64,000 bases of DNA from Escherichia coli (GTDB lineage Bacteria > Pseudomonadota > Gammaproteobacteria > Enterobacterales > Enterobacteriaceae). The position numbers are program-made. Where the stretch lies: NCBI RefSeq assembly GCF_024298765.1, contig NZ_CP101210.1. One strand, 5' to 3'. Within the stretch, counting starts at the first letter, position 1, and every line of letters begins with the position of its first letter. Positions 44,701-46,663 of the stretch are shown in pieces.

Positions 44701-46663
44701 CGGTAGCCAGGTAATACTTCAATAAGCCGCCCGGCACGCAGGGCTTCGCGCACGGCAATGCGCGGGATCTGAATAATCCCCAGACCGGCAAGACCGGCGG
44801 CGAGATAGTTTTCGCGACTGTTTACCGTCAACATGCCGCCAGACTTAAACCACTGGACGCCATTAACGCTGGCAACCTCAAAACCTAACGGATGTACACC
44901 CAGGTGCGGTGTGTAACGCACTATTGCGTGTGAAGCCAGATCGTCGGGGCTTTGCGGATAACCAAAGCGCGTCAGATAGTGCGGACTGGCACAGTTGACC
45001 ATGGTCAGTTTGCCGAGGGGACGGGCGATAACGCCATCTTCCGGTAACGCGCCAGTGCGTATCACGCAATCAAAACCATCGTGAAGAATATCTACCGGAC
45101 GGTCATGGCTACTCAGCTCCAGCTCAATTCCCGGATGCTGATAGAGAAATTCCGACAGACGCGGCAGTAACAGGCTTTTCGCGATTCCTGGCGGGATGTC
45201 GATGCGTAATTTACCGCTGATACTGGTGGCATCCTGTTGAAACAGACCGTCCAGTTCGTTGAGATTACTCAACACATCTTTTGCCCGTTGATAATAGGTC
45301 ATGCCTTCTGGCGTGAGTTTGACTCGCCGCGTGGTGCGCTGGAGAAGCTGGATGCCAAGTTGATGTTCCAGTGCCTGTATCTGGCGCGAAACACTTCCCT
45401 TTGGCAAAGCAAAAAAATCCGCCGCGCGAGAAAAACTTTCCAGCTCCGCGACTTTGATGAACAACTGCATTGCGTGAATTTTATCCATTTCTTTGACCGA
45501 TTGTTGTTCACAACGAAACAGTAACGCGCATATCGCATTGTTTATTGTTTTTTCTAACACCTAAAGCCGGGTTTCACAATGTTGTCATGACGAATGTGGC
45601 GATTTCTCAGTAGGAAAAGGGAGGAATAGCTTTCTTAGAAAGGTGAATCCCCTTAAACAGAGCGTATTTTTCAGCGATTCCCTTTAAAGTGAATAGAGGA
45701 CGTATTGGCTATTTGTGCTTATTTTTGTCTCATTGCCATTTGTTATTTTGGCTTGTGGTCGCGGAATTTCATTTTTAATTGCATGCGTACTAACCACTAA
45801 TATAAGGAAATCCTCAAAATTGTTTTAAATAGTGCCCTCGACATGTAATTTCAGGCGTTTAGCTGTAACTATTTATATCGGTAACTATTTTCTACGCGTC
45901 ATCTCTGTAGAATGGCCACCGCCAAATGGCGAATTCTTATTTTTTCTCGCGGGTAATACCCTTCCACTACTTAAGTCTTTTTAACGTATTCAGGTGGAGA
46001 TTCAGTTATGCAAATAGTCATGTTTGACAGGCAGTCAATATTTATTCATGGAATGAAAATCAGTTTACAGCAACGTATTCCAGGAGTGAGTATTCAGGGG
46101 GCCAGTCAGGCAGACGAGTTATGGCAAAAGCTGGAAAGTTACCCTGAAGCCTTAGTGATGCTCGATGGCGATCAGGATGGTGAGTTTTGTTACTGGTTGC
46201 TGCAAAAAACCGTGGTGCAATTTCCTGAGGTTAAGGTGTTAATTACGGCGACGGATTGCAATAAACGGTGGTTACAGGAAGTTATCCATTTTAATGTGCT
46301 GGCCATTGTGCCTCGTGATTCAACCGTCGAGACATTTGCGTTGGCGGTAAATAGTGCGGCGATGGGGATGATGTTTCTGCCTGGAGACTGGCGGACGACG
46401 CCGGAAAAGGACATTAAAGATCTCAAATCGTTAAGCGCCCGCCAGCGGGAGATTTTAACCATGTTAGCGGCGGGCGAATCAAATAAGGAGATCGGCAGGG
46501 CGCTGAATATCAGTACCGGAACGGTAAAAGCGCATCTGGAATCCCTGTATCGCCGTCTGGAAGTGAAAAATCGCACCTAGGCGGCAATGATGTTAAATAT
46601 CTCCTCCTGAAGAGGATAATTTTACAGCCAGCAGGAAGTTAGCGGCTGGCTGTAAAAATATTA

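What the first reader, a model, noticed from the sequence alone, without database searches (positions are those of the whole stretch)
46008..46580. yhjB ends at a TAG that truncates the LuxR-type helix-turn-helix
Seen in sequence: the ORF ends ...LYRRLEVKNRT-TAG at 46578..46580, and the same frame then reads AAMMLNISS before a TGA. Established knowledge: in LuxR/FixJ regulators the segment after the recognition helix forms a final helix of the same hydrophobic pattern, and I recall YhjB as about 200 aa. Inference: CAG (Gln) to TAG removes the last 10 residues and may weaken DNA binding or dimerisation.
Basis: partly seen in the sequence, partly recalled or inferred. Interest (0 to 1): 0.4.

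Follow-up and report, generated by a model that had tools for sequence, protein, structure and literature searches.

The report
Natural amber stop truncating regulator YhjB
A single C-to-T change at a methylated cytosine has put a premature stop codon near the end of the poorly understood E. coli regulator gene yhjB, cutting off its last conserved helix; it is a real, rare, repeatedly arising natural variant of an ordinary kind.

Summary
ORF 46008..46580 (+) is yhjB. It ends NRT-TAG, and AAMMLNISS-TGA follows in frame. 5,401 of 5,411 complete E. coli genomes differ from the TAG-bearing 61-mer there; the wild types examined read CAG (200 aa). Ten carry the exact TAG 61-mer, and RefSeq already lists the 190-aa product (WP_001368328.1).

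The window differs from its nearest complete genome (strain 104) by three SNPs in 64 kb, and the TAG is one of them. Independent assemblies are identical to the window and carry the TAG, so it is inherited and not a read error.

The mutated base is the inner cytosine of a Dcm site (CCAGG to CTAGG), the textbook 5-methylcytosine deamination route to amber codons. The allele sits on at least four haplotype backgrounds. Each has a near-identical wild-type sister, so it arose repeatedly.

The ten lost residues hold five positions invariant across 20 orthologues from Escherichia, Citrobacter, Salmonella and Intestinirhabdus. They make up 9 of the 11 residues of the last helix, which is the dimerisation helix in NarL-type regulators. 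Loss or weakening of function is likely but untested.

yhjB also carries other natural null alleles (Q71 stops, a frameshift), so it looks dispensable. Interest is low: a new example of a known kind of event. The same sublineage also has a stop in yhjG (L366*).

The parts
46008..46580 (+). Truncated yhjB ORF (190 codons plus TAG), allele Q191amber; product identical to RefSeq WP_001368328.1
46578..46578 (+). The derived base: T here, C in the two wild-type genomes aligned (strain 104, K-12); 5,401 of 5,411 complete genomes lack the TAG 61-mer. It is the only difference from strain 104 within the surrounding 6 kb
46577..46581 (+). Former Dcm recognition site: wild type CCAGG, here CTAGG. The changed position is the inner cytosine that Dcm methylates
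   Evidence: Dcm specificity from PMC3527292 and PMC13250602
46581..46610 (+). Orphaned 3' end of the gene: nine sense codons (AAMMLNISS) and the ancestral TGA stop, now untranslated
46425..46577 (+). Remaining part of the GerE/LuxR-type HTH domain (residues 140-190). It matches Pfam PF00196 positions 1-51 of 57 at 69.7 bits, against 1-56 at 78.3 bits in wild type
46008..46367 (+). N-terminal receiver-like domain (about residues 1-120). It has the alternating strand-helix pattern (five strands, five helices) of a receiver domain in the model and aligns to VraR and NarL receivers. The Pfam Response_reg model does not match at E<=0.01
46602..46626 (+). Weak terminator-like hairpin (5-bp stem) with tail TAATTTTACA, overlapping the ancestral stop. 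yhjB is the last gene before the convergent treF, so the early stop has no downstream gene to be polar on
   Evidence: This is only a consensus match, and the count is no higher than in shuffles

Best explanation
This is a genuine, inherited nonsense allele of yhjB (Q191amber).

Origin (inferred). In the ancestor, codon 191 (CAG) lay in the sequence CC-CAG-G, so its first base was the inner cytosine of a Dcm site (CCAGG). Dcm methylates that base. 5-methylcytosine deaminates to thymine, and when very-short-patch repair by Vsr misses the resulting T:G mismatch, the outcome is CTAGG, an amber codon. This is the same route that creates the classical lacI amber hotspots (recalled, not checked here). 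Because the site is intrinsically mutable, the same allele has arisen independently in several E. coli lineages.

Consequence (inferred). Translation stops ten codons early. The protein keeps its receiver-like domain and the first three helices of its LuxR/GerE-type DNA-binding domain, including the recognition helix. It keeps only 2 of the 11 residues of the fourth helix. In NarL-family regulators that helix packs against the bundle and forms most of the dimer interface on DNA. The most likely result is a regulator that dimerises and binds DNA poorly or is unstable, i.e. a partial or complete loss of function.

Persistence (inferred). The allele is tolerated because yhjB is weakly expressed and dispensable, as its other natural null alleles show. 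There is no polar effect, because yhjB is followed only by the convergent treF.

Shown: the base change, its sequence context, its rarity, its presence on multiple backgrounds, its inheritance, the conservation of the lost residues, and the predicted helix. Inferred: methylation and deamination as the actual cause, and the functional defect.
For: Real and derived:
- 10 of 5,411 complete genomes match the TAG 61-mer exactly; all the others differ.
- The window differs from strain 104 by one base in 6 kb and three in 64 kb.

Inherited, not an error:
- GCA_902849615.1 is 100% identical to the window over 21,098 bp and SRR27876916 over 10,154 bp; both carry the TAG.
- GCA_037165025.1 has two mismatches and also carries it.
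- The 190-aa product is on at least 1,000 contigs and in 2,151 index blocks.

Dcm context:
- Wild type is ACC CAG GCG, and the changed base is the inner C of CCAGG.
- It is the only one of the 21 transition routes to a stop in yhjB, and of 84 single-base routes, that lies at a Dcm-methylated base.
- CCWGG is a documented G:C-to-A:T hotspot at the methylated base (PMC13250602, PMC3527292).
- dcm-vsr is present in 5,358 of 5,426 complete genomes.

Recurrence:
- Four backgrounds differ from each other by 30-108 sites per 6 kb.
- Each has a wild-type sister: strain 104 at 1 difference per 6 kb; K-12 at 2 per 3.8 kb; STEC435 at 1 per 6,061; 90-3040 and 2013C-3492 at about 3 per 6,061.
- The tract around the TAG shared between the window and the other carriers is only 170 bp.

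Functional importance of the lost part:
- Q191, A192, A193, M194 and L196 are invariant in 20 orthologues.
- The model places a helix at 189-199.
- The closest structures are VraR, LiaR, RcsB, DesR and NarL.
- alpha10 is the NarL dimerisation helix (PMC4549865) and supplies about 64% of the DegU DNA-binding-domain interface (PMC9263151).

Dispensability:
- Q71 stops are in 415 index blocks.
- A frameshift allele is on 221 contigs, and in-frame deletions also occur.
Against: - Deamination of the same Dcm site on the other strand gives the synonymous CAA. That variant was found in 0 of the 4,352 genomes the search could reach. A symmetric hotspot would be expected to show it at least as often as TAG. 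Strand bias could explain the gap, since the coding strand is both the non-transcribed strand and the leading-strand sequence, but this was not tested.
- A stop at Q71, outside any Dcm site, also occurs on more than one haplotype, as both TAG and TAA. So repeated loss of yhjB does not need a hotspot.
- Methylation at this position and the presence of dcm in the source genome could not be checked; dcm lies outside the window.
- No functional data exist for YhjB (PMC8464067, PMC4797297). PGAP annotates the 190-aa form as a normal CDS and not as a pseudogene. The truncated domain still scores 69.7 bits against GerE. Model confidence over residues 191-200 is only about 61 pLDDT.
Confidence: 0.62

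Rival explanations
1. Functionally neutral length variant. The 190-aa protein still folds, binds DNA and regulates normally, for example because dimerisation runs through the receiver-like domain. The TAG would then be a harmless polymorphism.
For: PGAP annotates it as an ordinary CDS in all ten complete genomes. The GerE match remains strong at 69.7 bits against a cut-off of 23.5. The recognition helix, residues 170-184, is intact. The allele has persisted long enough to be shared by related isolates from several countries and years. The last three or four residues of YhjB vary among genera.
Against: Five of the ten lost residues are invariant across 20 orthologues that share only 73-96% overall identity with the E. 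coli protein. They form 9 of the 11 residues of the predicted last helix. The equivalent helix is the DNA-bound dimer interface in NarL and DegU (PMC4549865, PMC9263151).
Confidence: 0.22
2. Recurrence is driven by selection for losing YhjB and not by a mutational hotspot. Inactivating yhjB would be advantageous in some niches, any null allele would be favoured, and Q191amber would simply be the most frequent of them.
For: Several independent null alleles exist. Q71 stops occur as TAG and as TAA at a non-Dcm site, in 415 index blocks. A frameshift allele is on 221 contigs, and there are in-frame deletions. TAG is seen on four or more backgrounds while the equally mutable synonymous CAA is not seen at all. 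The same sublineage also lost yhjG, and bcsQ is broken in the wider lineage.
Against: The allele is at only 0.18% in complete genomes, and nothing indicates a sweep. The orthologue is conserved at full length across genera. A null allele 10 codons from the end would be an odd favourite unless mutation bias made it common. The TAG versus CAA contrast rests on three or four events (p about 0.06-0.12 under equal rates).
Confidence: 0.12
3. Single origin followed by horizontal spread. The TAG arose once and was copied into other lineages by homologous recombination.
For: E. coli recombines frequently. The two STEC groups share a 1,644-bp identical tract around the TAG, so those two could share the allele by descent or transfer.
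Against: The window shares only 170 bp of identity around the TAG with every other carrier group. The pig group shares 539-626 bp with the STEC groups. Each background has a wild-type sister that differs at essentially only this base. That would need several very short patches, each bringing in exactly one SNP.
Confidence: 0.06
4. Sequencing or assembly error, or a leaky stop that is read through so that full-length YhjB is still made.
For: No reads are available for the window. Two of its three private SNPs are stops, which at first looks suspicious. From general knowledge, UAG is occasionally decoded as Gln in suppressor-free E. coli, and that would recreate the exact wild-type protein at a low level.
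Against: Three independent assemblies carry both stops on an identical or near-identical haplotype. Ten complete genomes and at least 1,000 contigs carry the TAG. The only tRNA gene in the window is tRNA-Pro; the rest of the genome could not be examined. Basal read-through is a small fraction of translation.
Confidence: 0.03

Closest known systems
lacI amber hotspots at Dcm sites (5-methylcytosine deamination, countered by Vsr very-short-patch repair)
   Same: The sequence event is identical: the inner C of CCAGG changes to T and converts an in-frame CAG (Gln) to TAG. CCWGG is a recognised G:C-to-A:T hotspot at the methylated base in E. coli (PMC13250602, PMC3527292). The classic lacI work is recalled from general knowledge. 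The allele recurs on independent backgrounds.
   Different: It is seen here as standing natural variation and not in a laboratory forward-mutation screen. Methylation and dcm dependence were not demonstrated. The mirror-image product on the other strand (CAA) was not found.
NarL/FixJ (LuxR/GerE C-terminal) response regulators such as NarL, VraR, LiaR, RcsB, DesR and DegU
   Same: Two-domain architecture and fold. There is a GerE-type four-helix DNA-binding domain with the recognition helix third and a final helix that mediates dimerisation on DNA (PMC4549865, PMC9263151).
   Different: This allele lacks almost all of the fourth helix. Wild-type YhjB is itself an orphan with an atypical receiver: Pfam Response_reg does not match, and Arg103 replaces the conserved Lys. 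The single N-terminal Asp was read from the sequence, not from an alignment. No kinase, signal or target is known (PMC8464067, PMC4797297).
Other natural loss-of-function alleles of yhjB in E. coli (Q71 stop, 211-aa frameshift allele, in-frame deletions)
   Same: Same gene and the same outcome class (a disrupted regulator), found in public assemblies.
   Different: Those alleles remove or scramble the whole DNA-binding domain and are unambiguous nulls. Q191amber removes only the last helix, is the most frequent (2,151 against 415 index blocks), and is the only one at a Dcm site.

Membership tests
GerE/LuxR-type HTH DNA-binding domain (Pfam PF00196) | Sequence match to the family profile above the curated cut-off | tested here: met
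   the truncated protein scores 69.7 bits (cut-off 23.5) over profile positions 1-51 of 57. Wild type scores 78.3 bits over 1-56.
GerE/LuxR-type HTH DNA-binding domain (Pfam PF00196) | Complete four-helix bundle including the C-terminal (fourth, alpha10) helix | tested here: not met
   the wild-type model has helices at 144-154, 159-166, 170-184 and 189-199. The stop at codon 191 leaves only residues 189-190 of the last helix.
NarL/FixJ-family response regulator | Receiver (CheY-like) fold N-terminal to the HTH domain | tested here: met
   residues 1-118 show the alternating strand-helix pattern (five strands, five helices) of a receiver domain; the top Foldseek hits are the full-length regulators VraR, LiaR, RcsB, DesR and NarL (E 3e-11 to 3e-8). 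HMMER alignments to VraR and NarL span residues 19-196.
NarL/FixJ-family response regulator | Canonical phosphorylation pocket (acidic pair, phospho-acceptor Asp, conserved Thr/Ser and Lys) and a match to the Response_reg profile | tested here: inconclusive
   Asp53 aligns with the NarL phospho-acceptor Asp. However, only one N-terminal Asp (D7) is present (read from the sequence), Arg103 sits where NarL has the conserved Lys, and Pfam PF00072 does not match E. coli YhjB at E<=0.01.
NarL/FixJ-family response regulator | Cognate histidine kinase and phosphorylation-dependent DNA binding | not testable with these tools
   No kinase gene is adjacent. The literature lists YhjB as uncharacterised (PMC8464067, PMC4797297).
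Dcm-site 5-methylcytosine deamination mutation | The ancestral sequence is CCWGG and the change is C to T at the inner cytosine | tested here: met
   wild type CCAGG at 46577-46581; the window has CTAGG, with the change at 46578.
Dcm-site 5-methylcytosine deamination mutation | The host encodes Dcm and the site is methylated in vivo | not testable with these tools
   dcm-vsr is present in 5,358 of 5,426 complete E. coli genomes. The source genome's dcm locus is outside the window, and no methylation data are available.
Dcm-site 5-methylcytosine deamination mutation | Elevated mutability, seen as independent recurrence of the same change | tested here: met
   There are four backgrounds, 30-108 differences per 6 kb apart, each with a wild-type sister 1-3 differences away. 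The tract shared with the window is only 170 bp.
Dcm-site 5-methylcytosine deamination mutation | Expected companion: the opposite-strand product (CAG to CAA) also occurs | tested here: not met
   no exact match to the CAA 66-mer among the 4,352 genomes reached. This is an expectation and not a defining criterion, and the event numbers are small.

The most novel reading that the evidence does not exclude
yhjB may be a target of repeated, niche-specific adaptive inactivation in natural E. coli. On this reading the in-frame Dcm site at codon 191 acts as a built-in high-rate off switch. That would explain why the amber allele recurs on many backgrounds while the equally mutable synonymous CAA product of the same site is absent, and why other null alleles (Q71 stops, a frameshift) are also common. 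The co-occurring stops in yhjG and bcsQ would then point to coordinated remodelling of an envelope and biofilm-related neighbourhood in this sublineage.
Probability: 0.08. Interest if true: 0.45.

Novelty: new member of a known kind. Interest (0 to 1): 0.15.

Why it matters
It matters only modestly. For annotation, the 190-aa form is currently named as a normal regulator (WP_001368328.1), although it lacks a conserved helix and is probably impaired, so a flag may be warranted. For mutation biology, it is a clean natural example of a Dcm-site amber mutation arising repeatedly in wild E. coli. The built-in synonymous control (CAA) at the same site could be used to separate mutation bias from selection. 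For anyone studying the orphan regulator YhjB, carriers and their near-isogenic wild-type sisters are ready-made natural allele pairs: the window lineage with strain 104, the pig isolates with K-12, and the STEC carriers with STEC435. A supE/glnV amber suppressor would restore the exact wild-type protein.

Tried and rejected
- Sequencing error or planted edit. I considered this seriously once two of the window's three private SNPs turned out to be stop codons. I rejected it because three independent assemblies carry both stops on an identical or near-identical haplotype.
- The window's genome is one of the ten complete TAG carriers. Rejected: those are 100-108 differences per 6 kb away, and eight further carrier contigs are only about 97.8% identical.
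- Protein-level counts of hypothetical truncations at other Gln or Trp codons, used as a mutation-rate control. This was only partly useful, because many entries are flagged partial (contig ends). Only Q71 was verified as a true stop.
- Literature search for Dcm amber hotspots with broad terms. It returned mostly irrelevant human-genetics papers; a narrower search gave usable sources.
- Intrinsic terminator between yhjB and treF. The 9-bp inverted repeat at 46624-46653 was read by eye and the scan did not report it as a terminator. The scan found only a weak 5-bp hairpin, and the count was no higher than in shuffles, so I make no claim.
- Polar effect of the stop. Rejected, because the next gene (treF) is convergent.
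- Amber suppressor in the window. None found; the only tRNA is tRNA-Pro. The rest of the genome was not visible.
- Effect of SNP 53205 on GadY. Rejected: GadY maps to 52928-53041 and the SNP lies outside it.

Full report
**What is in the sequence.** The ORF at 46008..46580 on the + strand encodes 190 residues ending ...LESLYRRLEVKNRT and stops at TAG (46578-46580). The same frame continues AAMMLNISS to a TGA at 46608-46610. The neighbours are yhjD, rcdB (yhjC), treF, ccp and gadA, so this is the E. coli yhjB locus. Wild-type YhjB is 200 aa, and codon 191 is CAG in strain 104 and K-12.

**Rarity.** An 801-bp query matched 5,423 complete E. coli genomes, and the best hit was one mismatch away. 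A 61-mer centred on the codon matched exactly in only 10 of 5,411 genomes; all the others differ. In all ten, NCBI's pipeline annotates a 573-bp CDS with product WP_001368328.1 and does not mark it as a pseudogene. In the larger assembly collection the exact 190-aa protein is on at least 1,000 contigs (the counting cap) and in 2,151 index blocks. The allele is therefore rare in proportion but well represented in absolute numbers, and it is already catalogued.

**Where the window sits.** The whole 64-kb window aligns without gaps to strain 104 (NZ_CP029164.1) with three substitutions:
- 40666 T>G
- 46578 C>T, the amber
- 53205 G>T

About 20 complete genomes from poultry, pigs, dogs, humans and water tie with strain 104 as best hit to a 22-kb query (identical bit score, about three mismatches). 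None of the three SNPs occurs in any complete genome on that background.

The first SNP changes yhjG codon 366 from TTA to TGA, so two of the three private changes are stop codons. That raised the possibility of an artefact. I looked up the truncated 365-aa YhjG and found it on 18 contigs. Where the contig reaches yhjB, the 190-aa form is there too:
- GCA_902849615.1 is 100% identical to the window over 21,098 bp.
- SRR27876916 is 100% identical over 10,154 bp.
- GCA_037165025.1 differs at two sites.

All three carry both stops. The window therefore represents a natural sublineage in which both stops are inherited. A read error is excluded.

**How the mutation probably arose.** The wild-type context is ACC CAG GCG, so codon 191 begins at the inner C of CCAGG, a Dcm site, and that base is the one changed. 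yhjB holds three Dcm sites, and only this one yields a stop. It is 1 of 21 transition routes, and 1 of 84 single-base routes, to a stop in the gene. Dcm methylates the second C of CCWGG. Deamination of 5-methylcytosine gives T, Vsr repairs the T:G mismatch incompletely, and CCWGG is a recognised G:C-to-A:T hotspot in E. coli (PMC3527292, PMC13250602). The classical lacI amber hotspots, recalled from general knowledge, are the same event. dcm-vsr is present in 5,358 of 5,426 complete genomes. The source genome's own dcm locus is outside the window and could not be checked.

**Recurrence.** The ten complete carriers form three haplotype groups: four pig isolates with K-12-like flanks, four STEC, and two further STEC. 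The window lineage is a fourth group. The groups differ by 30-108 sites per 6 kb. Each has a wild-type sister that is nearly identical apart from this base:
- window lineage: strain 104, 1 difference per 6 kb
- pig group: K-12, 2 differences per 3.8 kb
- first STEC group: STEC435, 1 difference per 6,061 bp
- second STEC group: 90-3040 and 2013C-3492, about 3 differences per 6,061 bp

The tract around the TAG that the window shares with any other carrier group is only 170 bp. It is 539-626 bp between the pig and STEC groups, and 1,644 bp between the two STEC groups. Independent mutation is the simpler reading for at least three of the four. The two STEC groups might share the allele by descent or transfer.

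**Two observations that temper the hotspot story.**
- Deamination on the opposite strand of the same site gives CAA, which is synonymous and should be at least as visible. It has no exact match in the 4,352 genomes the search reached. With three or four TAG events against none, the contrast is weak (p about 0.06-0.12 under equal rates). The yhjB coding strand is the non-transcribed strand. It is also the leading-strand sequence, because GC skew is positive on the + strand throughout the window and K-12 yhjB is on the complement strand at 3.67 Mb. From general knowledge, both states favour C deamination on that strand. That explanation is inference.
- A stop at Q71, outside any Dcm site, is in 415 index blocks and occurs both as TAG and as TAA on different haplotypes. 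A frameshift allele giving a 211-aa product is on 221 contigs, and several in-frame deletions exist.

So yhjB is inactivated repeatedly in nature whatever the site. Tolerance of loss explains persistence. The Dcm site best explains why this particular allele is the commonest.

**What is lost.**
- Pfam GerE (PF00196) covers residues 140-195 in wild type (profile 1-56 of 57, 78.3 bits) and 140-190 in the truncated form (1-51, 69.7 bits).
- In 20 orthologues from Escherichia, Citrobacter, Salmonella and Intestinirhabdus, at 73-96% identity to the E. coli protein, N188-R189-T190-Q191-A192-A193-M194 and L196 are invariant. Only the last three or four residues vary.
- An AlphaFold model (mean pLDDT 80.8) gives C-terminal helices at 144-154, 159-166, 170-184 and 189-199, so the stop leaves 2 of the 11 residues of the last helix. 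Confidence over 191-200 is only about 61.
- The nearest solved structures are VraR, LiaR, RcsB, DesR and NarL.
- In NarL the output domain dimerises on DNA along helix alpha10 (PMC4549865). In DegU alpha10 contributes about 64% of the dimer interface and also touches the DNA backbone (PMC9263151).

A defect in dimerisation, DNA binding or stability is therefore likely, but nothing here tests it. YhjB itself is uncharacterised. It is listed among LuxR-family regulators of unknown function (PMC4797297, PMC8464067). It is induced by indole in Salmonella and is reported to stimulate dephosphorylation of EnvZ and NtrB in vitro (PMC3405474). SoxS and PhoB sites lie in the yhjB/yhjC intergenic region (PMC10268841, PMC10294691). 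Its receiver-like domain is atypical: Pfam Response_reg does not match. Asp53 aligns with the NarL phospho-acceptor, but Arg103 replaces the conserved Lys, and only one N-terminal Asp is present (read from the sequence).

**Other consequences.** yhjB is followed by the convergent treF, so the early stop cannot be polar on a downstream gene. The only tRNA in the window is tRNA-Pro. From general knowledge, a supE/glnV suppressor or rare near-cognate decoding of UAG would insert Gln and recreate the exact wild-type protein. That would make a neat experimental control, but there is no evidence it matters here.

**Verdict.** The stop is a real, derived, inherited amber allele that removes a conserved terminal helix. 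It most likely arose by 5-methylcytosine deamination at a Dcm site and has done so repeatedly. It is a new example of a well-known kind of event in a dispensable, uncharacterised regulator, and is already in RefSeq as a protein record. Interest is low. The only mildly unusual threads are the TAG versus CAA asymmetry, the multiple natural null alleles of yhjB, and the cluster of three premature stops (bcsQ, yhjG, yhjB) in this 64-kb stretch of the sublineage.

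Noticed in passing
window 40665-40667 (yhjG, 39570..41630 +): The window's second private SNP (40666 T>G relative to strain 104) converts yhjG codon 366 from TTA (Leu) to TGA, truncating the 686-aa AsmA-family protein to 365 aa. The truncated product is on 18 public contigs. It is linked to the yhjB amber in GCA_902849615.1, GCA_037165025.1 and SRR27876916.
   Followed up: yes
window 22013-22015 (bcsQ, 21935..22687 +): bcsQ has an internal TAA at codon 27, in the context TCA TTA TAA ATG, which is not a Dcm site. The stop is shared with strain 104, where PGAP marks bcsQ as a pseudogene with an internal stop. 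This 64-kb stretch therefore carries three premature stops in this sublineage.
   Followed up: partly
window 53205 (gadX-gadW intergenic): The third private SNP (G>T) lies 80 bp upstream of the gadW start (53285) and outside the GadY sRNA, which Rfam places at 52928-53041 on the minus strand. It has no exact match in complete genomes.
   Followed up: partly
L031-L035 (yhjB loci from other E. coli), codon 71: yhjB Q71 stop alleles occur as TAG in four contigs and as TAA in one, on different haplotypes, in 415 index blocks overall. A frameshift allele (211-aa product, P0037) is on 221 contigs, and several in-frame deletions exist. yhjB is repeatedly disrupted in natural E. coli.
   Followed up: partly
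window 46008-46367 (YhjB residues 1-120): The YhjB receiver-like domain is atypical. Pfam Response_reg does not match at E<=0.01. Only one N-terminal Asp (D7) is present (read from the sequence), and Arg103 sits where NarL has the conserved Lys, although Asp53 aligns with the NarL phospho-acceptor. This suggests a pseudo-receiver or non-canonical regulation.
   Followed up: partly
window about 16170-18030: There are four tandem copies, with a period of about 483 bp and 95-97% identity, each carrying an Ldr-family type I toxin gene according to the strain 104 annotation.
   Followed up: no
window 6463-8022: A tRNA-Pro (CGG) gene is followed directly by an IS3-family transposase with a programmed frameshift and an annotated RtT sRNA, according to the strain 104 annotation.
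   Followed up: no
window 46577-46581, opposite strand: The synonymous CAA variant expected from deamination on the other strand of the same Dcm site is absent from the 4,352 complete genomes reached, while TAG occurs on four or more backgrounds. This is an unexplained asymmetry. Strand bias, selection and small numbers are all possible.
   Followed up: partly
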